Below, piece by piece: positions 7,725-64,000 of a stretch of DNA of 64,000 nt. The notes beneath the pieces were generated by a model. It worked only from the letters and a program-made list of their open reading frames with translations. It searched no databases and had not been told where the DNA came from. Each line of letters starts with the position of its first letter. The first letter of the stretch is position 1. Origin of the DNA: the human T2T-CHM13v2.0 reference genome, Homo sapiens; assembly GCF_009914755.1 (NCBI RefSeq), contig NC_060946.1; one strand, written 5' to 3'. A program made the position numbers and the translations under genes.

Positions 7725-8040
7725 TTTTATTTTATTTTATTTTTTAAGACGTAGTCTTGCTCTGTCACCCAGCCTACAGTGCAATGGTGCGATCTTGGCT
7801 CACTGCAATCTTTGCCTCCTGGGTTCAAGCGATTCTCCTTCCTTAGCCTCCTGAGCAACTGGGATTACAGGCATGCACTATCATGCTTGGATAATTTTTG
7901 TGCTTTTTTTTTTTTTTTTTTAAGAGACAGGGTTTCACCATGTTGGCCAGGCTGATCTTGAACTCCTGACCTCAGGTGAGCTACCCACCTCGGCCTCCAA
8001 AAGTGCTGGGATTACAGGTGTGAGCCACCACGCCTGGCCA
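7725..8040 (-). mobile_element. Alu (AluS-like)
   Basis: Reverse Alu with (tttta)n tail and gaactcctgacctcaggtga. Confidence 0.93.
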
Positions 8041-8982
8041 AGTAAATATTTTAAATAAACTACAATGACAAAATTATGATGATAAAGACTTACCATATTG
8101 GTATTAAGAGTCTCTGCTTCTAGAACTGGTTATTTGCAGGAAAATACATGTTATTCAATTAGATGAAGTGTTTTATATAAACTCTTCATGGACAACTCAT
8201 AAATCACATAAAAATCCCTTTGCAATACAAATCTTGAGAACATAAATTTAAATTTCTACATTTCCACAATTTATATTTTTAAATCAGATACAATGTTACC
8301 CAGGCTGTTCTCAAACTCCTGTGTTCAAGCAATCTTACTGTCTCAAACTCCCAAGTAGCAGGGACTACAGGTGTACACCACCAAACTCAGCTATTTTTCT
8401 ACAACTTTTAATATTTTTTTAGTCTCACTACAGAACCAATAATATAAGTAGAGAAACAATCTCTCCTAAAAACTATATGACACCAAAATCATAAGTTTCC
8501 AAGAACAAAAGCTATATGCTATGTGCTGAACATTTCTGCCACTAAAAATTACCAGGAGGATTCCATGATTACTGCAAACAATTTGATCCACTGAAGGTTT
8601 ATACAGGAATAAATATTAAGAAAGTCACACTCGTATGATTTAAAAGTCAAAGTATTAGTATTTATCCAAATAAACTTTAACCAAAGTTCATATTTCCTCT
8701 ATTGGAGAAAGCATTTCCTAATGTGATTTTCCTGTGACTACTTATTTTCCAGTTCATTTATTTTTCAGCTCCCACCCTGTCACAGTACTTACCAATCTTT
8801 ATTAGTTACCAAAGTTAAACACATTTTTTGAATCAACTAGCCATGTGTATGTTTTTCTCTGACCAACTTTCCATTACCACCATAAAACAATGATAGGTAA
8901 ACCACTGCTAAATTTGAAAAGTAAATACTATGCAAAACTACACCCAGAGTGAGAAGATTAATTTTACAAGAGACCACTTTAC

Positions 8983-9052
8983 CTTAGTAGCAACACTCAA
9001 GTCTTCATCATCCAATGTAGGCAATGAATCCACACACAGTTCATGCAAAATG
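8983..9052 (-). pseudogene. ANKRD20A-like: ANKRD20A-family pseudogene exon (70 bp), ILHELCVDSLPTLDDEDLSVATK
   Basis: ctcaag|CATTTTGCATGAAC...GCTACTAAG|gtaaag; resembles ANKRD20A IFHELRVDSLPASDDKDLNVATK. Confidence 0.87.
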
Positions 9053-11731
9053 CTTGAGAGCAAAAATACACAATGAAAATGAGCAAGTTGATTTCTTTAC
9101 AATTTTTTTAACTGCCAGTTTATATCCAGCTTCCCCCTCAAAAAAAGGAAAACATAATCTGGGGAAAAGTCAGTGATCTATATATTAAATTACGATTCTT
9201 GATATAATTAAAATATGTCCTCTGTTCTAAAAAGAGATTTTAGTTACCTATTTCTGCCTCCACCTGTCTAAATCTATAAAATATTCAATGAAAACTAACC
9301 TTGAGGTTTATAACAAATAGTGACAGTCAATATATTGGCAGAGCCTGACAATAATGTGCCCTCACAAATTATCTGTCCTGAAGCTGAACTTAAAATTCAA
9401 TTAATGGATGACATAAATTTTGTTCCCTAAACTGGAATAAAACTGATGACCTAAAACAAGGTAGAAAGATCCACTGTCTCTTTTCCATGATCTGTCTCTG
9501 GATAAAAGACTAATCTACATCACTTCAAAATGGTAGTCTTGATTCCTCAGCATGGATCCAACTTAGGAAGGTCCTATTGCTTTCCTTTACCCTAAATTGG
9601 TACAGGAAAACCCCCACAATATTTGAAATGTATGAAAGCTAAATGTACAGAAGTCAAATAGCAAAGATGTATGTTCTTATTGAGAATACTTTTCCCAGAA
9701 AGATTAAAATATTCACAATTATAAAATCCCATTATTTTCACTCTATAGGTCCTACCTTATTCAGGTCCACATAAACTAGCAATCCCTTAAAAATTTTCAT
9801 AGGCACTCAGACACCGAAGGAGAGAGACTGCCAGAAAAGAAACAGAGTCATGATAGTTGTACCTCTATTTCCCTAAGTACTATCTAAGTATATTTCTTCC
9901 TATGGACACCCACTTCCAGATTCTACTTCTGCAGGGTTCCACAGAAGTCTCCAATCTTTAAATCTTCAGTGTATGAAAGCACAGATTCCTGAAAGAATGG
10001 CCTCAAATGACCAGGAGTAGGAGCTCTCTATATCCCTGCTCCTGAAAAACAAGCTAACTGGAGTCTCCATCACCTGCCACCAGCTATACACACTACCAAC
10101 TACCCAACTGAACTCCATGACTGATTTGCCAGCTAATCATGCCCCTGACCCAGCCCACATGGACATGGGAAGGACATCAGTGAACTGTGAAAAGAGGCAG
10201 AGGTGAGGAGACACCTGCCCTGTGCCACACATCTATGTAGTTCAGCAATTTCCATCCCCTTAGTACTCCAGGGGCTCTAAGCCACCCCTTTGTAAGTCAG
10301 GATGGAAGTAGATGACACCACATTTCTATCTGCTGTAGACATTCTTCCCAGTGTCTCAAAATGTTTTGGCATCTTTCAGTAAAAATCTTCAAGTTTGTCA
10401 GTCCTTGATTTAAAAAAAAAAAAGCAGCAAAATTTTTAGAGCTCCCTTGAACCTTCTATTTTAATGTGCCTTTGTAGATAATTCCCAACATCTTGTGTCC
10501 TTCATTTTTATAATTTATCTTTATCAAACTTGTCATAAACCCCAATACTTTGATCTCTTGTAGAAGAGTCCGTACTCCTATCCAATCCAGTGTTGTTTAT
10601 CTTCAAACTTGGACTTCCCCTGCTAATTCCATTCTTATCTACTTCCATTGGGTTCACCAGCTAATTCCATTCTCATTCTATCCACAGAATCACTGCCGTT
10701 TGTATTATTAAAACACACGCCAATAGGACATAGAAAGAAGCAAGAGTACTGGGCTTTACCATGAGTTCAAATCTCATTTCTGCCAATTCCTATGTCTAAA
10801 AAAAAGCTTCGTAATCTCTTTGAGCCTCACATTCTCTATCTAGAGAATCACTTGACCAGAATGTTCAACGCAGAGAAAAATACTAGAAGGTATTTTAATT
10901 CATTCCAAGATTCCTTAAAATTCTGTAATTCTATGTCCTCTTGATTCTGTCTATAGAAAAACTTGGAATACATAGGCAGCAGAGTTTGAAAAAATAATAG
11001 AACAAAAGAAACACCAAGAAAAACAGAGAAGAAAGTTTTAAAAAATGAGGACAAGATTATATAAAAGTCATGGAAAAAGCAACAAGACTAAAAAATGTAT
11101 TATGGAAGTAAGCAGAAATACTTGCCTAAATGGAAAACCAAACTGTGAAGTCAAATAATTTGTCTCTAAGACTTGCCTAAACTTGCTTTGGTAAAACTTA
11201 CAGTCCTATGGCCAAAGCTAAGTCAGATCTGCCCTAGAGCCTTTGAAGGTAAAAATAAGATACTGGTTACCACTGAAATCGTCAAATTTATTAGGACTAA
11301 CCACATTCTAACAATAAACTTAAATGAGAGTTCAAGGTATTTAAACTCTCATTAATTTAGAAGTTAATCAAATTAATGAATCTGATTGATCTGATTCAGA
11401 CCTATACTTTGATCCAAGGGCTGCACAGATATCTATCAATCTATGCTGAGGAGCAAGAGAAAGGATTTGGAAGGCAGGCAGGCTGATGGTCAAACTGTAG
11501 GCCAGCTACTTTGTTAACTATGGGATCATGAGGCAATTAATCAGCTCTAATCCATAGTTGTTTATTTAACAGTAGGTTATAGGAACACAGATGTTATGAT
11601 GGCTTTATGAGATGATAAATGCATAGAACATATTAGGATGTCTAGCCCAGAATACAACACTCAACAGATATTAGTTTCTTCCATCTATATTTTCTTAGTT
11701 AACATAATTTTTTAAATCTATGAAATCTTAC

Positions 11732-52629: not shown

Positions 52630-52942
52630 CCCCTGAACCTGACCCTGATCCCTAACCCCTGACCCTGATCCCTAACCCCTGACCCTGACCACTAACCCCT
52701 GACCCTAACCCTAACCCCTAACCCTAACCCTTAACCGTAACCCCTAAGCCTAACCCCTAACCACAACCCTCACCCTCACACTAATCCAACCCTAACCCCT
52801 TATCCCTAACCCCTAACCTCTCTTAACCTCTAACTCTAAACGTTGTCTCTTAACTCCTAACTCTGACCCCAACCCCTATCTCCAACCCCTAACCCTAAAC
52901 TTAACCCCTAACCCCTAACCCTAACACCAACCTTAACCCTAG
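52630..52942 (+). repeat. Interstitial degenerate telomeric repeat (CCCTAA/CCCTGA/CCCCTAA)n
   Basis: About 50 hexamer or heptamer variants, C-rich on the + strand. Confidence 0.96.
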
Positions 52943-53768
52943 GTTCTTTACTACGTTTGTACTATGTCAATGTTGATTATTATGATCTCTGTCTTAGGAC
53001 TGCATAGCAGCAAGGGGATTGCGGATCTTATATTAATATTTTTGTATTGAGGCAGTGCATTAGCATTACAGGTGCTTGTTACATGAGCAATGGGGGTGTC
53101 ATATTTTGGGTGTCATGTCTGCATTAGGAATGCTGCATTTGTCTTCCGAGGCTGCGGTGTGGATCTCGCACTGCGGCTGCCTTGGCTTGGCTGGGGAGAA
53201 CCTCGGTTGGCAGGATTCAGAGGGGCTTTTGGTTTCCCTTTTCCACACTGAGCCCTTCTAACTGGTCTCTGACCCTGATTATTCAGGGCTGCAAAAGGGA
53301 AGGATTTTATTCACCGTCTATGTGGTCCCGAGTTGTCCCAAAGCGAGGCAGTGCCCCAAAGGTCTGTGCTGAGGAGAACGCTGCTCTGCCTTAGCGGTGT
53401 CCCCCGGGTCTGTGCTGAGCAGAACGCAGCTCCGCCCTCGCGGTGCCCCCGGCCCGCCTGGGTCTGTGCTGAGGAGAACACTGCTCCGCCTTCGCTGTAT
53501 CTCTGAAGTCTGTGCAGAGGAGAACTCAGCTCCGCCCTGGCGATGCTCTCCTTGTATGTGCTGGGAAGAACGCAGCTCCGCCCTCGCAAAGGCGCACAGC
53601 GCCGGCGCAGGAGCAGAGAGGCCCACAGCGCTGGCGAAAGGCGCAGAGAGGCCCACAGCGCCGGGGCAGGCGCAGAGAGGCCCACAGCGCCGGCGCAGGC
53701 GCAGAGAGGCCCACAGCGCCGGCGCAGGCGCAGAGAGGCCCACAGCGCCGGCGCAGGCGCAGAGAGGC
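52943..53768. repeat. TAR1 telomere-associated repeat, with ~46-54-bp repeats (53355-53590) and about six 29-bp repeats (53595-53768)
   Basis: Directly follows (CCCTAA)n; units gtctgtgctgaggagaac...ctccgccctcgc and gcgccggcgcaggcgcagagaggcccaca. Confidence 0.9.
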
Positions 53769-57118: not shown

Positions 57119-57494
57119 GATGGTTTGAGACAGAATGAGGAGTGACTAATGTCTACAGGGTTTTTCTCTGGTCGGGGGTGATAAGACGTTCTACAATGGA
57201 TTGCGAATTAAAATTGAATGTGCACAACCACAGGTATACTAAAAGCCACTCAATTCATGACTTTTAATGGGGAAATCTTATGTGGCGCACTCTAATGGAG
57301 ACCACGGCAGACATAGTGAGAGAGAAAAAGGTGAGTAAATATCTGAAACGGAGGCAGAAACAGAGAGAATGAAAAGCCCTGTGAATGGAAGGGAGAGCGA
57401 AAAGGGAAAATGGTCCTATTTACAAATGACAGATGTGAAACCGGGGTTCACATCAACAGTGTCACTGCCAGGAAGGAGGGTCATGCTAGCCATG

Positions 57495-60236
57495 TCACCG
57501 GTAGTGTGTCCCGCAGGGACGCCGACCTGCTGGAGCGTCGTGCCAGCATGGGCTCTGGCAGCCACGTGGGCCAGCAGGAGGGTCCTGCTGCACAGCTGTG
57601 GGGTGAGGATAGACTGGGTGGTGATATCGGCCATTACAGGGGCCTCTTCTGCTGGCAAGAGTGTGACAGTAGCAAGTAGATGGACAGGCCTGCGTGTGAG
57701 GACGGAATGCAGGAGGGGCTCTTGTGCGGCTGGTTGTGGGGCCCTCACCAGAAATGTGGAGAAATGGCCATGTAACTGCGTCATGTGGGCTAGTAGATTG
57801 GCCAGGGCTTCGAACTGAAGGACAATAACGGGGAGTAGCTGTCAGGCCCTGGGAGTGTCTGAGTGTAAGTGGAGATGGGTTTGGGGTCACTGAGGGATGC
57901 GTGGGAGCCATCCCTGTATAGGTACAGGTCATAGGGAGATAGTCTCGTGAGGCCTGTGAGTGTCTAGGGTTGTCCTGGGTGCCTGGGGCTGACTGTGGCA
58001 GAAATCCGGGGAAGGCTGGAGAGAAGCTGGGAGACCCAGGAGAGTCCCTGAAGGCAGGGGGTGAAGAGGTGAAAGAAATGGGGGAGGGTTGCAGTAAGGT
58101 CCGTGAGTTTGTAGGTGATTCCTGGGTGCGGGAAGCTGACTCCAGGTGAAATCTGGAGATGGTTGGAGAGTAGCTGAGAGAGACAGAAGAGTCCCTGAGG
58201 GCTGGGGGTGAGAACATGAGGGAGACTGGGGAGTAAGTCAGTGAAATTCGTGAGTTCGGTGGTGTATCGTGGGTGCCTGGAACTGACTCCAGCTGGAATC
58301 TAGAGAAGTTTTGACAGTAGCTGAAAGAGACACAAGAGTCCCTGTGGGCTGAGGGCAAAGACCTGAGAGAGACCAGGGAGGACCTCAGTGAAGTCTGTGA
58401 GTCTGTAGGTGATTCCGGAGTGTGGGAGGCTGACTCCCGCTGAAATCTGGGCGTGGTGGGAGAGGAGCTGGGACAGACAGGAGAGTCCCAGGGGGCTGGG
58501 GGTGAAGACATGAGAGAGACTGGGGAGTAACTCAGTGAAACTGCTGAGTTTGTAGGTGATACCTGGGTGCCTGGAACTGACTCCCGCTGAAATCTGGGCA
58601 TGGTAGGAGAGTAGCTGGGACACACAGGAGAGTCCCTGAGGGCTGGGGGTGAAGACATGAGAGAGACCGCGGAGTAACTCAGTGAAACTGGTGAGTTTGG
58701 TGGTGACTCCGGGGTGCCTGGAACTGACTGCAGCTGAAATGTGGGCGTGGTTGGAGAGTAGCTGGGACCCCCAGGAGAGTCCCTGAGGGCTGGTGAAGAC
58801 ATGAGAGAGACTGGAGAGTAATTGAGTGAAATTGGTGAGTTTGGTGGTGATTCCTGGGTGCCTGGAACGGACTCCCTCTGAAGTGTGGGCGTGGTTGGAG
58901 AGTAGCTGGGACACACAGGAGAGTCCCTGAGGGTTGGAGATAAAGACGTGCTAGAGACTGAGGAGTAACTGAGTGAAATTGGTGAGTTTGGTGGTGATTC
59001 CGGGGTGCCTGGAACTGACTCCAGCTGAAATGTGGGCGTGGTTGGAGAGTAGCTGGGACAGACGGGAGGGTCCCTGAGGGATGGTGAAGACATGAGAGAG
59101 ACTGGGGAGTAACGCAGTGAAATTGGTGAGTTTGGTGGTGATTTCTGGGTGCCTGCAACGGACTCCCGCTGAAGTGTGGGCGTGTTTGGAGAGTAGCTGG
59201 GACAGACAGGCGACTCCCTGAGGGTTGGAGATAAAGACGTGCTAGAGACTGGGGAGTAATTCAGTGAAAGTGGTGGGCTTGGTGGTGATCCCTGGGTTCC
59301 TGGAACTGACCCGCGCTGAAATGTGGGCGTGGTTGGAGAGTAGCTGGGACAGACTGGAGGGTCCGTAAGGGCTGGGGGTGAAGACATGAGAGAGACTGGC
59401 GAGGATCTCACTGAGGTCTGTGAGTTTGTAGGTGTTTCTGGGGTGTGGGGTAGAGACTCCTGCTGAAATCTGGGCGTAGTTGGAGAATAGCTGGGACAGA
59501 CAGGAGACTCATGGGTGGCTGGGGGTGAGCTGCTGGATGATGGCAGTAAGAACATATGGTATATTATTGATGAATGAGGTGACTGTGAAGAATCTCCAGA
59601 GGAGGACACGGGAGAACACAATGACATGAGTGACTGTCCTGCTTGGTTAGGAAAGGGAAACGTAAAGCTGTGGAATTCTGTTGATGATGGATGTGAGAGT
59701 GGTGAAGCCCTGCGGGGTGATGTAGAGTACTTCCACATCTCTGGTGAGGAGCTGCCCCTTGGGTCTGAGTTTCTGGGAGGGGAGAGGGAGAAGCTGGGTG
59801 AGGCAGGCATGAATCTTGAGGAGTCAGGGCTGGGGGACCGCTCATATTCTCCCGAGACCTGTGAGTCTCTGGGGGACTCCTGGGTGCATGGGACTGACTC
59901 CCGCAGGAACCTGGGGATGGCTGGAGAGTAACTGGGAGCCACAAGAGAGTCCCTGAGGCCTGGGGGTGAAGAGATGAAAGACACAGGGGTGGAGCACCGT
60001 GAGGCTCGTGAGTTTGTAAGTGATTCCTGGGTGTGGGGGACTGACTCCAGCTGAAATCTGGGGTTGTTTGGAGAGTAGCTGGGAGACACAGGAGACCCCC
60101 CGAGAGCTGGGGGTGAGCTGCTGGGTGATGGCAGTAAGAGCATGTGGTATATTATTGATGAACGTGGGGGATCTGAGGAATCCTCAGAGGAGGACACGGG
60201 AGAGCCCAATATCTTCATTGATTGCCCATCAATCAA
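57495..60236 (-). CDS. Putative 913-codon Ser/Pro/Thr-rich ORF spanning the ACRO1 array, with Pol II CTD-like YSPTTP motifs; 5'-truncated (track start is TTG, first ATG at 60218)
   Basis: Stop-free for 2.7 kb; 48-49-aa repeat PALRDSPVCPSYSPTTPTFQLESVPGTQESPPNSPISLSYSPVSLMSS; the upstream part of the same frame exists at 62389-62634 on +. Translation is unproven. Confidence 0.4.
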   Translation of the reverse strand: MIDGQSMKILGSPVSSSEDSSDPPRSSIIYHMLLLPSPSSSPPALGGSPVSPSYSPNNPRFQLESVPHTQESLTNSRASRCSTPVSFISSPPGLRDSLVAPSYSPAIPRFLRESVPCTQESPRDSQVSGEYERSPSPDSSRFMPASPSFSLSPPRNSDPRGSSSPEMWKYSTSPRRASPLSHPSSTEFHSFTFPFPNQAGQSLMSLCSPVSSSGDSSQSPHSSIIYHMFLLPSSSSSPPATHESPVCPSYSPTTPRFQQESLPHTPETPTNSQTSVRSSPVSLMSSPPALTDPPVCPSYSPTTPTFQRGSVPGTQGSPPSPPLSLNYSPVSSTSLSPTLRESPVCPSYSPNTPTLQRESVAGTQKSPPNSPISLRYSPVSLMSSPSLRDPPVCPSYSPTTPTFQLESVPGTPESPPNSPISLSYSSVSSTSLSPTLRDSPVCPSYSPTTPTLQRESVPGTQESPPNSPISLNYSPVSLMSSPALRDSPGGPSYSPTTPTFQLQSVPGTPESPPNSPVSLSYSAVSLMSSPPALRDSPVCPSYSPTMPRFQRESVPGTQVSPTNSAVSLSYSPVSLMSSPPAPWDSPVCPSSSPTTPRFQRESASHTPESPTDSQTSLRSSLVSLRSLPSAHRDSCVSFSYCQNFSRFQLESVPGTHDTPPNSRISLTYSPVSLMFSPPALRDSSVSLSYSPTISRFHLESASRTQESPTNSRTLLQPSPISFTSSPPAFRDSPGSPSFSPAFPGFLPQSAPGTQDNPRHSQASRDYLPMTCTYTGMAPTHPSVTPNPSPLTLRHSQGLTATPRYCPSVRSPGQSTSPHDAVTWPFLHISGEGPTTSRTRAPPAFRPHTQACPSTCYCHTLASRRGPCNGRYHHPVYPHPTAVQQDPPAGPRGCQSPCWHDAPAGRRPCGTHYR
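57930..60231 (-). repeat. ACRO1-type 147-bp satellite array (about 15-16 monomers)
   Basis: gagagtagctgggac recurs at 144/147-bp spacing (about 58607, 58754, 58898, 59045, 59189, 59336); the neighbouring L1 and MER21 pieces fit the ACRO composite unit as I recall it. Confidence 0.82.
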
Positions 60237-60504
60237 TACTTCTTTAACCTGACGGAAGAACTGATCTAAAGGCTTTAGTACAGTGCATGATTATGTGAGA
60301 TGTTTTGAGACAGAGTAGTACATTTGTGAATGAAATTTTATGGCTTATTTTCGCTTAGTAGGAACCATTGTGTGTGGAAAAGTGAGGAAATTGCTTTCTG
60401 CTGTAGAGTCTGGCATTCATTGTAGATTTAAGCTTATTTTCCTGTGAGCAAATCTTATTCAATAAAATACTACTCTTTATACTGAAAAACAAAAACACTG
60501 GTGA

Positions 60505-60830
60505 TGTGAGGTCATTATCCTCAGCAAACTAATCCAGGGAAAGAAAACCAAACACCACATTCTCACTTATAATGGGAGCTGAAAAATGAGATCACATGGA
60601 CACAGGAAGGGGAACAACACACACTGGGGCCTTTCGGGAGGCAGAGCGTTAAGAAAAACAGCTACTGCATGCTGGGCTTAATACCTAGGTGATGGGTTGA
60701 CAGGTGCAGCAAACCACCATGGCACACGTTTACCTTAGTAACAAATCTGCACATCCTGCACATATACCCCGAACTTAGAAACGAAACGAAACAAAAGAAA
60801 ACGAAAAAGCAGTAACAAAACGCTAAAGGC
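60505..60830 (+). mobile_element. L1PA 3'UTR fragment with (GAAAC)n tail
   Basis: cattatcctcagcaaactaa...gggcttaatacctaggtgatgggttgacaggtgcagcaaaccaccatggcacacg. Confidence 0.88.
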
Positions 60831-60974
60831 AAAATAAAGTTTCAAACTCAGAAAGTGACAGACCAATGTTTGGTTCAAATCATGGGTTCTCAACCCAGGT
60901 GCCATAAGGTCAGAATAAAAAATTTGATTATGTATTGTAAATAAGACATGCAGCAAATGACCAGAGAGATTATT

Positions 60975-61465
60975 CTCAACATATGTGTGTCTTCTAATTC
61001 AATGGTGACGCTATCTACCGGGACATAGCATTAGATTCCAAAGGGCCGAGTCCCACCAGACAGGCCTCCCACACTAATAACAATGGGAAGCCCCACGTTG
61101 TTTTACCTGTGCTTCTCAGCAACTGGCTATAAATCAGGTTGCCACCACTCCCAGATTTAGTTGCATTCATTTGCTGGAAGAGCTCACAGCACGCAGGTAA
61201 ACACTTACATTTGCCGTTGTATTTTAGCGGACATTGCAAAAAGTTCAGAAATAAATGTGGGGCCCGGCATGTGGGGAGGGGCGCACTACCTTCCAGGAAG
61301 TGTTATCCAGAAGCCCTCTGAACCCAGTCCTTTTGGGTTTTTATGGAGATCTCCTTCTATAGTCATGATGGGTTAAACCATAGGCTATTGGTGATCAGCT
61401 CCACCCGAGGCTCTCAACCCTCCCTGGAAATTGGGGTTGAGGCTTTGCCATTCTCAGTCTGACTC
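60975..61465 (-). mobile_element. MER21-like LTR
   Basis: ctaattcaatggtgacgctatctacc...tacctgtgcttctcagcaactggctataaatcagg...ccagtccttttgggtttttatggag. Confidence 0.68.
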
Positions 61466-61989
61466 AAAGAATTTACCCAAACGGAATTTTAAAACAGATG
61501 AGCATAACTGGAATCTTAATTACATGATTGGATTATCTGGAGCCACACCTTGATATTCCTAACCCGAGCACCCTCATCCAACGAATGCTCCACCCAACTG
61601 GCTCCCAAGTCTCTACGTGGTTCCAGAGCAAAAGAATGTTTATACAACGCATATCTCCACCTTTTCTTCAAAGTCTTTTCGTTTACACGGAAAGACTTCT
61701 TAAACTGCCATGCATCAGAGTCAGGGGGAGGTCTTGTTACAACACAGATCTGTGCATCTCCGGGGTTTGATTGTGGCAAGGATGCTGCTGGTGTCAAAAC
61801 CACAACGTGGGAACCACAGAACCACTAGTTGGTTTTCAGTGTTTCAGTGCATACAATTCCTAATATATCTGGCCAAGAAAACTTGTAAGTTCTTAGATTG
61901 TCCCAAAGGTGGCGCATGAAATCAAAGCAGGAGAACAGTTTCCTACCAGGTGTAGCCTGGGAAAGTTGGGGGTGACTGATGGAAAGGAG

Positions 61990-62388
61990 GAGTGAAGCTC
62001 CGCCCTTTCCGCTGCTAGGCTGCGCCCGAGGCTATTTAAACCCACCCTGGCTGGCCTGTACTCAGATCTTCGCGGAGCGGATCAGCGGCCGGAGCGTTTG
62101 GCGGACTCTGCGTGGACTTGGAGCTCACAGTGTCTTGCGACTTGGAAGCGGATTCAGAGGACAGGACAGAACACGTGGGCAAGTGAATCTCTGTCTGTCT
62201 GTCTGTCTGTCTCATTGGTTGGTTGATTTCCATTTTCTTAAGGGGCACATACCTCACACCGCACACACACAAACACACACCGCACACACAAACACACACA
62301 CACACACACACGCGCGCACACACACACTCCTTCCTTCTTCGAGTTAGAAAATTGGTACGGGCCCCTGGGAGCTGCAGGTTTCCTAATC
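61990..62388 (+). promoter_or_regulatory. Putative Pol II promoter, non-coding exon 1 and short intron of the ACRO1 unit
   Basis: GC box ctccgccc (about 61998), TATA-like ctatttaaa (62032-62040), CpG-rich ~62060-62178 ending in a GC-type donor GG|gcaagt, intron with (TCTG)n and (CA)n, acceptor ctgcag|G at 62377, ATG in aatcATGt at 62389. Confidence 0.55.
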
Positions 62389-63170
62389 ATGTCTGCACCT
62401 AAGAACAGTAGGGTCTTGTCTGGCTCTTCTTATGAACGGTCCCCCAGCCCAGACTCCCCAAGGTCCATGCGAGCCTCACCCAGCTTCTTCCTCTCCCCTC
62501 TCAGAATCTCTTGCTTAAGGGGAAGCTCCTCACCAGGGATCCGGAGCTACCATTCACCATCCCCTAGGGCTTCACCACACTCACCTCTGTCATCACCAGA
62601 ATCCCACAAGCTCCCATTTCCCTGTCCTCACCGTGATGGGCAATCAATGAAGACATTGGGCTCTCCCGTGTCCTCCTCTGAGGATTCCTCAGAGTCCCCA
62701 CGTTCATCAATAATATACCACATGCTCTTACTGCCATCACCCAGCAGCTCACCCCCAGCTCTCGGGGGGTCTCCTTTGTCTCCCAGCTACTCTCCAAACA
62801 ACCCCAGATTTCAGCTGGAGTCAGCCCCCCACACCCAGGAATCACCTACAAACTCATGAGCCTCACGGTGCTCCACCCCTGTGTCTTTCATCTCTTCACC
62901 CCCAGGCCTCAGGGACTCTCCTGTGGCTCCCAGTTACTCTCCAGCCATCCCCAGGTTCCTGTGGGAGTCAGCCCCATGCACCCAGGAGTCCCCCAGAGAC
63001 TCACAGGTCTCGGGAGAATATGAGTGGTCCCCCAGCCCTGACTCCTCAAGATTCATGCCTGCCTCACCCAGCTTCTCCCTCTCCCCTCCCAGAAACTCAG
63101 ACCCAAGGGGCAGCTCCTCACCAGAGATGTGGAAGTATTCTACATCACCACGCATGGCTTCACCACTCTC
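62389..63170 (+). pseudogene. 5' part of the ACRO1 ORF (MSAPKNSRVL...), with a CGA>TGA stop at 62857-62859 and truncation at 63170
   Basis: 62634-63170 is the near-identical reverse complement of 59695-60231, in the same frame as the 913-codon ORF; TNS* here versus TNSR there. Confidence 0.75.
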
Positions 63171-63705
63171 CTTACCATTAGAACACTCAGTAATCATATG
63201 AATTGTGCAGTTGTTGTTTTGCTTAACTCTTTTTGTTTGTTTATGCTTGGGGTTTTATTGTTGTTGTTTCACTTTTCTCCCATCTCTTCCTGACTTGGTC
63301 AAATCCAAAGGAATGTTCCAAATTATGGGGAGCAAGTCCTCTGAATTGGCTAAAACTCCTATGGCTGCAAAAAAACAAACAAATAAACAACAAAAAAAAG
63401 CATTCCAGTTAGCAGAAATTATTTTTTAAACCTTTTTTTTTACGTAACTGGTCTCATCTACATAAAAAGGTCATCCTTTTGCTAGCCAAGGCCAAACTGA
63501 AGGAGTAGTGGTGGTGACCCAATGTGAAGATTCTGCCCTGTTCACTACAGAAACCTGAGTTTGGTTCCTAAGTCTAGTTCTTTCTGTTTGATATTTGTGT
63601 TACTTTTAAAACGTCAGCAGTTTGTCCCAGCTATGATGTGGTAGTAAAAGATTCAAAAGGGGTTTCTTTACAGGTTCTATGATTAAAAGCTTAATTTAAA
63701 GCAAA

Positions 63706-64000
63706 TTTCTTTTTTTTTAAATTATACTTTAAGTTCTGGGGTACATGTGCAGAACATGCAGGTTTGTTACATAGGTATACACATGCCATGGCGGCTTGCT
63801 GCATCCATCAACCCATGATCTACATTAGTTATTTCTCCTAATGCCATCCCTCTCCTAGCCCCCCACGCTGACAGGCCCTGGTGTGTGATGTTCCCCTTGC
63901 TGTGTCCATGTGTTCCCATTGTTCAACTCCAAGTTATGAGTGAGAACATGTGGTGTTTGGTTTTCTGTTCTTGTGTTAGTTTGCTGAGAATGATGCTTTC
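63706..64000 (-). mobile_element. L1PA 3' end, running off the window
   Basis: ttttttttaaattatactttaagttctggggtacatgtgcagaac...tatgagtgagaacatgtggtgtttgg. Confidence 0.95.

What the first reader, a model, noticed from the sequence alone, without database searches (positions are those of the whole stretch)
59695..63170. Invertible-promoter architecture: flipping a 2.4-kb spacer between 537-bp inverted repeats would assemble a 993-codon gene
Seen: 59695-60231 and 62634-63170 are near-identical inverted repeats of equal length (537 bp). The spacer between them carries a GC box, a TATA-like box, exon 1, an intron, the ATG (62389) and 82 codons. These currently read into the right arm, which has a TGA at 62857 and is cut off at 63170. 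The left arm continues on the minus strand as 911 more open codons but has no recognisable promoter or N-terminus. Both arms share the frame (HR-DGQSMKTL versus LI-DGQSMKIL). Inference: a crossover in the first ~220 bp of the arms (before the TGA) inverts the spacer and yields promoter + 82 + 911 = 993 open codons, an OFF/ON arrangement like bacterial phase variation. Established: short inverted repeats mediate recurrent inversions by non-allelic homologous recombination. The simpler reading is a one-off fold-back rearrangement of an ACRO composite array.
Basis: partly seen in the sequence, partly recalled or inferred. Interest (0 to 1): 0.88.

Follow-up and report, generated by a model that had tools for sequence, protein, structure and literature searches.

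The report
Old rearranged ACRO repeat, not a switch
The inverted repeats are real, but they are the scar of an old one-off rearrangement that split one copy of a common 6-kb acrocentric repeat, and nothing suggests that the piece between them flips as a switch.

Summary
Arms 59695-60231 and 62634-63170 are 537 nt, gap-free, with 14 mismatches (97.4%). ATG 62389, the 82 codons, TGA 62857, the 911 open codons and the shared frame are all correct.

The switch reading does not hold. The block is one solitary ACRO (ACRE) composite unit in two overlapping head-to-head pieces. In ACRO tandem arrays on chr3, 4, 13, 14, 15 and 22 the same parts lie colinear with a single arm. Their ORF from the same ATG reaches 944-1091 codons in 6 of 10 units whose end was seen.

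Both novel junctions occur at exactly four loci (chr22, chr21, chr14, chr1), all in the same orientation. Arms group by side, not by locus, with five fixed left/right differences and no mosaic sites. The longest perfect tract is 112 bp.

The junctions look like end-joining: a 4-nt insert and a 4-nt microhomology. The promoterless frame is frameshifted in the chr14 and chr1 copies, and dN/dS between arrays is 0.86-0.99.

Verdict: an ordinary, fixed rearrangement relic. Rare flipping by recombination between the arms cannot be excluded from one haploid genome.

The parts
57119..59694 (-). Part 'c' of one ACRO composite unit: the rest of the 147-bp ACRO1 array plus the non-repetitive tail. Stop codon at 57495-57497 and an ATTAAA 229 nt downstream of it.
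   Evidence: 96.9-97.4% identical together with the left arm (window 57119/57122-60231) to colinear units of the chr3, chr14 and chr22 arrays. TRF period 147. Stop and ATTAAA.
57495..60290 (-). Open frame of 931 codons stop-to-stop with no promoter or start context. 911 codons counted from the arm.
   Evidence: Pfam finds 0 families. PDB search gives only weak hits to the RPB1 C-terminal repeat region.
59695..60231 (-). Left arm of the inverted repeat. It equals codons 82-261 of the canonical ACRO ORF.
60232..60235 (.). 4-nt filler ATCA at the novel head-to-head junction J, between the arm start and the start of unit part 'b'.
   Evidence: junction compared with the canonical unit. J was found full length at only 4 loci.
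60236..62633 (+). Part 'b' of the ACRO unit, which is the 'spacer'. It holds an L1 3'-end fragment (about 60513-60780), the promoter-like patch, putative exon 1 and intron, ATG 62389 and the first 82 codons.
   Evidence: 95.2-96.2% identical together with the right arm (60236-63170) to colinear units. L1 pieces: (I12, I13).
61525..61535 (-). TAATCCAATCA, a match to the DUX4 site consensus (consensus recalled from memory). Seen once per unit in most loci and identical wherever it occurs.
   Evidence: It is the only match in the 64-kb window, but 61 of 100 shuffles give at least one.
62000..62040 (+). GC box (62000-62005) and TATA-like TATTTAAA (62033-62040) inside a CpG-rich patch (61976-62180).
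   Evidence: Motif level only.
62389..62859 (+). Truncated ORF: ATG, 156 codons, then TGA. The TGA is a derived CGA>TGA change found only in the acrocentric right arms. The chr1 copy reads 270 codons.
62634..63170 (+). Right arm of the inverted repeat. The ACRO homology stops at its outer end.
63167..64000 (+). Start of an unrelated, widely dispersed pericentromeric/short-arm duplicon ('Z'), joined to the arm through a 4-nt microhomology (TCTC). It carries the last exon of lncRNA LOC124908441 (63173-63364, minus strand; hub annotation).

Best explanation
This is a fixed, old structural relic and not a working device.

**What it is.** One unit of the 6.3-kb ACRO (ACRE) composite repeat is present as two overlapping fragments joined head to head.
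- The left fragment, on the minus strand, runs from codon 82 of the unit's long ORF to the end of the unit.
- The right fragment, on the plus strand, runs from the start of the unit through promoter, ATG and 82 codons to codon 261.
- The 537 bp that both fragments contain are the 'inverted repeat'.

**How it probably arose (inferred).** It formed in a single non-homologous event. Either an inversion with a staggered break duplicated the sequence between the nicks, or replication switched template. This happened while this mosaic of short-arm/pericentromeric duplicons was being built. The whole block was then copied to chr1q and exchanged among the acrocentric short arms.

**What has happened since.** It has drifted neutrally.
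- A CGA>TGA stop arose in the right arm.
- Frameshifts arose in the left frame of the chr14 and chr1 copies.
- There has been no exchange between the arms.

**Expected expression (inferred).** If the ACRO promoter fires here, it makes a transcript with a 156-codon ORF that runs into unrelated sequence. ACRO1 in general is reported to be transcribed at the 4-cell stage and after DUX4 induction.
For: **Shown**
1. Colinear units exist. In loci from chr14, chr22, chr3 and chr15, window 60236-63170 and the reverse complement of 60231-57119 map onto one continuous unit, overlapping in a single 537-bp stretch. The period is about 6292 bp.
2. The ORF from the homologous ATG is 993, 993, 1042, 1091, 945 and 944 codons in 6 of 10 units whose end lies in the fetched DNA. 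The other four stop at 84, 209, 288 and 662. A further 19 units are open (187-689 codons) to the end of the held locus.
3. The virtual flip gives 993 codons, with 937 of 993 residues identical to the chr3 unit.
4. Junction J and the arm|Z junction each give exactly 4 full-length matches in the genome: chr22 (this window), chr21:7.63 Mb, chr14:5.83 Mb and chr1:127.77 Mb. All are colinear with the window across both arms and the spacer: 99.46%, 99.64% and 95.99%.
5. The eight arms form one clade (94/92). Left arms group together (85/81), and the three acrocentric right arms group together (98/94). Within chr1 the arms differ at 19 sites, while chr1-right differs from window-right at only 10.
6. 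Five columns are fixed different between all left and all right arms (61, 62, 213, 518, 523). No column shows a mosaic pattern.
7. Junctions: a 4-nt insert ATCA at J and a 4-nt microhomology at arm|Z.
8. The left frame from the arm is 911 (chr22), 911 (chr21), 762 (chr14) and 131 (chr1) codons. It is broken by a 13-bp and a 1-bp deletion in chr14 and by 1-bp insertions in chr1.
9. dN/dS between arrays, and between arrays and the window, is 0.86-0.99, with substitutions spread evenly over codon positions.
10. An independent head-to-head ACRO junction, with promoter and ATG in a 1.5-kb spacer, exists on chr13.

**From print**
- ACRO is a 6-kb composite of ACRO1, L1PA10, MER21B and L1MB8 (10.64898/2025.12.22.696095, section read).
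- Staggered-break inversions leave inverted duplications, median 321 bp and up to about 1.9 kb (PMC1885836, passages).
Against: - Only one haploid genome was examined. Three of the four loci are at least 99.4% alike, so there are effectively two independent lineages (acrocentric and chr1).
- No reads, haplotypes or other primates could be examined, so rare germline or somatic flips are not excluded.
- A 537-bp, 97.4% inverted repeat 2.4 kb apart is physically able to recombine.
- The genome search scores only the best 40 of about 570-770 candidates, so '4 loci' is a lower bound.
- The exact route of formation is unresolved. Both ACRO fragments end exactly at the two edges of the 783-bp linker that separates units in every sampled array and is absent here. 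Neither model explains this unless the source unit predated the linker.
- The left frame is still open for 911 codons on chr22 and chr21. That is compatible with chance. About 3-4% of substitutions make a stop, and I estimate about 35 lineage substitutions by halving the 71 window-versus-chr3 differences. This gives P(no stop) of roughly 0.2-0.35 (inference).
Confidence: 0.9

Rival explanations
1. The spacer is a rare, non-functional inversion polymorphism. Occasional recombination between the two arms flips it in some human haplotypes or cells, with no regulatory role.
For: The geometry allows it: 537-nt arms, 97.4% identity, 2402 nt apart. ACRO arrays do change copy number between generations (PMC12746033, passage).
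Against: - The same orientation is seen in 4 of 4 loci.
- No exchanged patches appear between the arms in either lineage.
- The longest perfect tract is 112 bp. In mouse cells, cutting uninterrupted homology from 232 to 134 bp lowered intrachromosomal recombination 20-fold (PMC2583991, passage).
Confidence: 0.06
2. One reading: a programmed ON/OFF switch in which inversion of the promoter-bearing spacer turns a 993-codon gene on.
For: Flipping would restore a 993-codon frame behind a promoter-like patch.
Against: - The same gene arrangement is already present colinear in many array units.
- There is no detectable purifying selection on the ORF.
- Frameshifts occur in the chr14 and chr1 copies.
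- No recombinase domain was found in the 7 spacer ORFs of 80 aa or more.
- There is no orientation difference among the 4 loci.
- The arms are not homogenised.
Confidence: 0.01
3. The inverted repeat acts as an RNA hairpin source. Read-through of the minus-strand lncRNA that is annotated to end 3 nt from the right arm would carry both arms. It would fold into a 537-bp duplex homologous to ACRO1 transcripts.
For: - The lncRNA's last exon is 63173-63364 on the minus strand (hub annotation).
- The nearest AATAAA lies about 80 nt upstream of that end, not the usual 10-30 nt (usual distance recalled). The model's end may therefore mark the limit of unique mapping.
- The arms are 97.4% complementary.
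Against: There is no transcript or small-RNA evidence. The structure is explained without any function. The arms drift like neutral sequence.
Confidence: 0.03
4. Assembly artefact: a mis-join in a repeat-rich short arm.
For: The region is a repeat-rich short arm.
Against: The same three junctions are present at four separately assembled loci, one of them on chr1q at about 96% identity.
Confidence: 0.005

Closest known systems
ACRO / ACRE 6-kb composite repeat (ACRO1 147-bp satellite with L1PA10, MER21B and L1MB8 pieces)
   Same: 147-bp monomers. 95-97% identity to array units over 3.1 and 2.9 kb. Same ATG and frame. The translation weakly resembles the Pol II CTD, as Boots et al. reported (PMC7714431, sections 7 and 12). 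Here all 13 PDB hits at E<=1 are RPB1 C-terminal regions, best E 5.7e-05.
   Different: It is solitary, not tandem. It lacks the 783-bp inter-unit linker. It is split into two overlapping head-to-head pieces and flanked by unrelated duplicons.
Inversions made by staggered breaks, which leave inverted duplications at the breakpoints (Ranz et al. 2007, PMC1885836)
   Same: A short sequence (537 bp, within their 46 bp to about 1.9 kb range) is duplicated in inverted orientation at the two ends of an inverted segment. Only one of the two breakpoints is duplicated. The joints look like end-joining.
   Different: The second break would have to fall exactly on an older junction (start of the unit | Z). 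A one-step template-switch origin fits equally well.
Recurrent human inversions by non-allelic homologous recombination between inverted low-copy repeats
   Same: Inverted repeats flank the segment.
   Different: The arms are short and lack a long perfect tract (112 bp at most). They show no sign of conversion or exchange. A single orientation is seen in 4 of 4 loci.
Bacterial invertible promoters (fimS and hin type; recalled from general knowledge)
   Same: A promoter-bearing segment lies between inverted repeats, and orientation decides whether a downstream frame is served.
   Different: There is no site-specific recombinase. The arms are hundreds of bp of diverged coding repeat, not short recombinase sites. 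No second orientation is seen. The 'ON' product is not unique in the genome.
D4Z4/DUX4-type macrosatellites with one ORF per unit (recalled)
   Same: The parent ACRO arrays are kb-sized tandem units. Each has a promoter-like patch and a long ORF, and they are reported as transcribed in cleavage-stage embryos (PMC6545021) and after DUX4 induction (PMC8990217, introduction).
   Different: The ACRO ORF shows no purifying selection between arrays. The window copy is a broken off-array unit.

Membership tests
ACRO/ACRE composite repeat | Arrays of 147-bp ACRO1 monomers | tested here: met
   TRF finds period 147, 10.6 copies, at 57973-59528. The 147-bp unit is stated in PMC7714431 section 7.
ACRO/ACRE composite repeat | Homology to the whole roughly 6-kb unit, including its non-satellite parts | tested here: met
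   57119-60231 and 60236-63170 align at 95-97% to units on chr3, 14, 15 and 22.
ACRO/ACRE composite repeat | Head-to-tail tandem arrangement with the inter-unit linker | tested here: not met
   The 783-bp linker has no match anywhere in the window. No further ACRO sequence is found in the window or the next 20 kb.
Invertible-promoter switch (phase-variation type) | Promoter-bearing segment bounded by inverted repeats | tested here: met
   The promoter is supported at motif level only.
Invertible-promoter switch (phase-variation type) | Dedicated site-specific recombinase | tested here: not met
   7 spacer ORFs of 80 aa or more were scanned against Pfam. No recombinase family appeared at E<=1. 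A factor acting in trans cannot be tested.
Invertible-promoter switch (phase-variation type) | Both orientations occur | tested here: not met
   4 of 4 loci have the same orientation in one haploid genome. Populations and tissues are not testable here.
NAHR-mediated recurrent inversion | Long uninterrupted identity between the arms | tested here: inconclusive
   14 mismatches in 537 nt. The longest perfect tract is 112 bp, and 80 bp before the TGA. This is below the 134-232 bp range discussed in PMC2583991, but there is no absolute threshold.
NAHR-mediated recurrent inversion | Arms homogenised by exchange or conversion | tested here: not met
   Arms cluster by side, not by locus. There are 5 fixed left/right differences and no mosaic columns.
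One-off non-homologous inverted duplication (staggered-break inversion or template switch) | The un-rearranged colinear arrangement exists | tested here: met
One-off non-homologous inverted duplication (staggered-break inversion or template switch) | Junctions with a short insert or microhomology only | tested here: met
   ATCA insert at 60232-60235 and TCTC overlap at 63167-63170.
One-off non-homologous inverted duplication (staggered-break inversion or template switch) | Structure inherited unchanged by descendant copies | tested here: met
   The same junctions occur at 4 loci, including chr1 at about 96%.
Protein-coding gene under selection (the ACRO ORF at this locus) | Intact start-to-stop frame and purifying selection | tested here: not met
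   The frame is split between strands. dN/dS is 0.86-0.99. Frameshifts are present in the chr14 and chr1 copies.

The most novel reading that the evidence does not exclude
The fixed inverted repeat is exapted as a hairpin-RNA locus. Read-through of the minus-strand lncRNA that is annotated to stop 3 nt from the right arm would produce a 537-bp, 97.4% paired duplex made of ACRO1 coding-repeat sequence. That duplex could feed small-RNA or RNA-editing pathways acting on the many ACRO array transcripts made in cleavage-stage embryos.
Probability: 0.03. Interest if true: 0.55.

Novelty: new member of a known kind. Interest (0 to 1): 0.14.

Why it matters
- It removes a highly scored candidate. A split ORF with a promoter between inverted repeats looks like a switch, but here it is the footprint of the rearrangement that broke the gene. 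The inverted repeats are the product of an inversion-type event, not a substrate kept for flipping.
- The same pattern arose independently on chr13. Such look-alikes should therefore be expected wherever ORF-bearing macrosatellites rearrange.
- The locus offers fixed marker sites: 14 arm differences, the TGA and three junctions. These could tell its transcripts and reads apart from those of the arrays.
- It may preserve a form of the ACRO unit that lacks the inter-unit linker.

Tried and rejected
- **Pfam scans.** The 931-aa frame and the 156-aa ORF gave 0 families at E<=1. The 7 spacer ORFs gave only sub-threshold hits: DUF6227 at 0.17, Homeodomain at 0.062 and SCIMP at 0.49. I treat these as chance.
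- **Linker and flanks.** I searched for the array linker in the window and found none. I searched for ACRO sequence right of 64000, or the left part of the Z duplicon, in the window plus 20 kb and found none.
- **DUX4 motif.** One match in the window is not significant by shuffling (61 of 100 shuffles give at least one). It is nevertheless conserved across the loci examined. I keep it only as a note.
- **Full census of array units.** A 40-kb sample was fetched instead. ORF counts therefore come from a sample of 29 colinear units, 10 of them with a visible ORF end.
- **Coding constraint among monomers.** dN/dS is 0.67-0.69 in the ORF frame, against 1.20-1.24 and 0.74-0.85 in the shifted frames. 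This is too weak, and the pairs too non-independent, to claim selection.
- **Route of formation.** I could not decide between a staggered-break inversion and a template switch. I found no linker-less array that could have been the source.
- **Supplements.** I did not open those of PMC7714431 (SI Fig. S3, ACRE map). Those of the bioRxiv preprints are closed (Supplementary Fig. 11 of PMC12746033, which may name the putative ACRO gene). They may bear on how far the ORF is already annotated.

Full report
**1. The observation**

- The repeat finder reports arms 59695-60231 and 62634-63170, 537 nt each, 97% complementary, 2402 nt apart.
- The pairwise alignment has no gaps and sharp ends on both sides. 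A direct count gives 14 mismatches (97.39%). Perfect tracts are at most 112 bp, and at most 80 bp within the first 223 arm positions that precede the TGA.
- The ATG at 62389, the 82 codons before the arm, and the TGA at 62857-62859 are as stated. So is the 931-codon stop-to-stop frame 57495..60290 on the minus strand, which has 911 codons from the arm onward. The two arms share the same frame.
- A GC box (62000), TATTTAAA (62033) and a CpG-rich patch (61976-62180, CpG o/e 0.81) are present.
- Exon 1 and the intron can only be supported at motif level.

**2. What the arms are**

- They are not free-standing repeats. They are part of a 147-bp, 49-codon tandem array.
- This is the ACRO1 satellite. 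It sits inside a 6-kb composite described in print as ACRO or ACRE: ACRO1 with L1PA10, MER21B and L1MB8 pieces (10.64898/2025.12.22.696095, section 5 read; PMC7714431, sections 7 and 12 read).

**3. The normal arrangement**

- The promoter-to-ATG segment of the window has at least 40 full-length copies in the same genome. They lie in tandem arrays with a period of about 6.3 kb on chr22, chr14, chr3 and chr15.
- In loci fetched from these arrays, window 60236-63170 and the reverse complement of 60231-57119 map onto one continuous unit. The two overlap in a single 537-bp stretch. A 783-bp linker follows before the next unit. That linker has no match in the window.
- The 'gene that flipping would assemble' is therefore the ordinary colinear ACRO unit.
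- I examined 29 colinear units. In the 10 whose ORF end lay in the fetched DNA, the ORF from the homologous ATG is 993, 993, 1042, 1091, 945 and 944 codons in six, and 84, 209, 288 and 662 in four. The other 19 are open (187-689 codons) to the end of the held locus.
- Joining the window's 82 codons to its left array in a script gives 993 codons, with 937 of 993 residues identical to the chr3 unit.

**4. Structure of the window copy**

- From left to right it reads as follows:
  - a satellite with 194-217-bp units;
  - the reverse complement of (arm + rest of unit), 57119-60231;
  - ATCA;
  - (start of unit + arm), 60236-63170;
  - Z.
- Z (63167 onward) belongs to a duplicon found at 20 or more other places. 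It continues leftward there into sequence that is absent from the window and the next 20 kb.
- The head-to-head junction carries a 4-nt insert. The arm|Z junction has a 4-nt microhomology. These are end-joining or template-switch signatures, not homologous recombination.

**5. Tests for flipping**

- Each novel junction gives exactly four full-length matches in the genome: this window, chr21:7.63 Mb, chr14:5.83 Mb and chr1:127.77 Mb. The tool scores only the best 40 candidates, so this is a lower bound.
- All four are colinear with the window through both arms and the spacer, at 99.46%, 99.64% and 95.99% identity. The orientation is therefore the same in 4 of 4.
- Three of these loci are near-identical, so there are effectively two independent lineages.
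- In a tree of the eight arms and nine array homologues, the eight arms form one clade (94/92). Left arms group with left arms (85/81), and the three acrocentric right arms group together (98/94). Within chr1 the arms differ at 19 sites, whereas chr1-right differs from window-right at 10.
- Five columns are fixed different between all left and all right arms: 61, 62 and 213 near the inner end, and 518 and 523 near the outer end. The remaining differences are lineage-specific, and none is mosaic.
- The TGA is a derived CGA>TGA change confined to the acrocentric right arms. The chr1 right copy reads 270 codons.
- There is thus no trace of crossover or conversion between the arms since before the chr1/acrocentric split. 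By the 2-4% divergence I infer that split to be of the order of ten million years old.
- For scale, cutting uninterrupted homology from 232 to 134 bp lowered intrachromosomal recombination 20-fold in mouse cells (PMC2583991, passage). Here the longest tract is 112 bp.
- No recombinase domain is found in the spacer ORFs.

**6. Is anything being kept?**

- The promoterless left frame is open for 911 codons on chr22 and chr21. It is cut to 762 on chr14 by a 13-bp and a 1-bp deletion. It is cut to 131 on chr1 by 1-bp insertions, and that copy has also lost one 147-bp monomer.
- Between arrays, and between arrays and the window, dN/dS is 0.86-0.99 with even spread over codon positions.
- About 3-4% of random substitutions would create a stop in this frame. 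With about 35 lineage substitutions (half of the 71 window-versus-chr3 differences), I infer that staying open by chance is not unlikely.

**7. How it formed (inferred)**

- One route is an inversion whose one breakpoint was staggered by 537 bp. The stretch between the nicks would be filled in and end up at both ends of the inverted piece, as described for Drosophila inversions (PMC1885836, abstract and passages).
- The other route is a one-step template-switch event.
- Either way the inverted repeat is the product of the event that separated promoter and frame.
- One point is unexplained. Both ACRO fragments end exactly at the two edges of the linker that all sampled arrays carry (chr3, 4, 13, 14, 15, 22). 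The eight arms are also a sister group to all array arms. The source may therefore have been a unit that predated the linker.
- An independent head-to-head ACRO junction on chr13, with promoter and ATG in a 1.5-kb spacer, shows that such layouts recur.

**8. Known context of the parent repeat**

- ACRO1 expression peaks at the 4-cell stage (PMC6545021, abstract and passages).
- ACRO1 is hypomethylated in the male germline (PMC5832720, passage).
- DUX4 activates ACRO1 (PMC8990217, introduction passage; PMC12776069, passage).
- The array is said to include 'a putative protein coding gene' (PMC12746033, passage).
- Boots et al. noted that the translated monomer resembles the Pol II CTD (PMC7714431). 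Here all 13 PDB hits at E<=1 are RPB1 C-terminal regions, best E 5.7e-05, while Pfam gives nothing.
- RefSeq annotates no gene between 49862 and 63173 in this window (hub table).

**9. Verdict**

- The sequence facts are right.
- The invertible-switch interpretation is not supported.
This is an ordinary, fixed rearrangement relic of a known repeat.
- What remains open is rare, non-functional flipping, which needs population long-read data, and a speculative hairpin-RNA role.

Noticed in passing
L025 (chr3:95.838 Mb), L028 and L024 (chr22:80-129 kb), L026 and L042 (chr15), L041 (chr22:7.565 Mb): Colinear ACRO units carry a 944-1091-codon ORF behind the same ATG. Length steps are whole 49-codon monomers (993, 1042, 1091), and monomers are 48 or 49 codons. 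The ORF frame has 0 stops, against 12 and 17 in the other two frames. Yet dN/dS between arrays is about 0.9-1.0. So the frame is open with no detectable present constraint.
   Followed up: partly
window 61525-61535 (-), and once per unit in most of L021-L028 and L039-L042: TAATCCAATCA, a perfect match to the recalled DUX4 site consensus, lies about 500 bp upstream of the TATA-like box. It appears in every ACRO locus examined and is identical in each occurrence. This fits the reports that DUX4 activates ACRO1.
   Followed up: partly
L040 (chr13:10,457,001-10,467,000), about 7995-9499: An independent head-to-head junction of two ACRO units. A minus-oriented unit cut just after the ATG meets a plus-oriented unit starting inside part b. 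This leaves promoter and ATG in a 1.5-kb spacer between inverted copies.
   Followed up: partly
window 57119 and 60236: Both ACRO fragments end exactly at the edges of the 783-bp linker that separates units in all sampled arrays but is missing here. This locus family may derive from a linker-less ancestor of the ACRO unit.
   Followed up: partly
window 63167-64000 and beyond (L037): Z is part of a duplicon present at 20 or more sites (chr1, 4, 9, 13, 14, 15, 18, 20, 21, 22) at 92-97% identity. Eight copies were fetched, and all continue leftward into sequence absent here, so the duplicon is broken at 63167 in this locus.
   Followed up: partly
window 52638-52941 and 53361-53768: A degenerate interstitial telomere-like (CCCTAA)n tract is followed by GC-rich 46/100-bp and 29-bp tandem repeats. 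This looks like a relic of a subtelomeric end inside the short arm.
   Followed up: no
   Followed up: no
window 61528-61770 (+): An 80-aa stop-to-stop frame gives a sub-threshold Pfam Homeodomain hit (E 0.062, 13.6 bits, helix-3-like WFQ..KR). It is probably chance.
   Followed up: no
window 63173-63364 (-): The last exon of predicted lncRNA LOC124908441 ends 3 nt from the outer edge of the right arm, with no poly(A) hexamer in the usual position. The model's end may mark where reads stop mapping uniquely.
   Followed up: no
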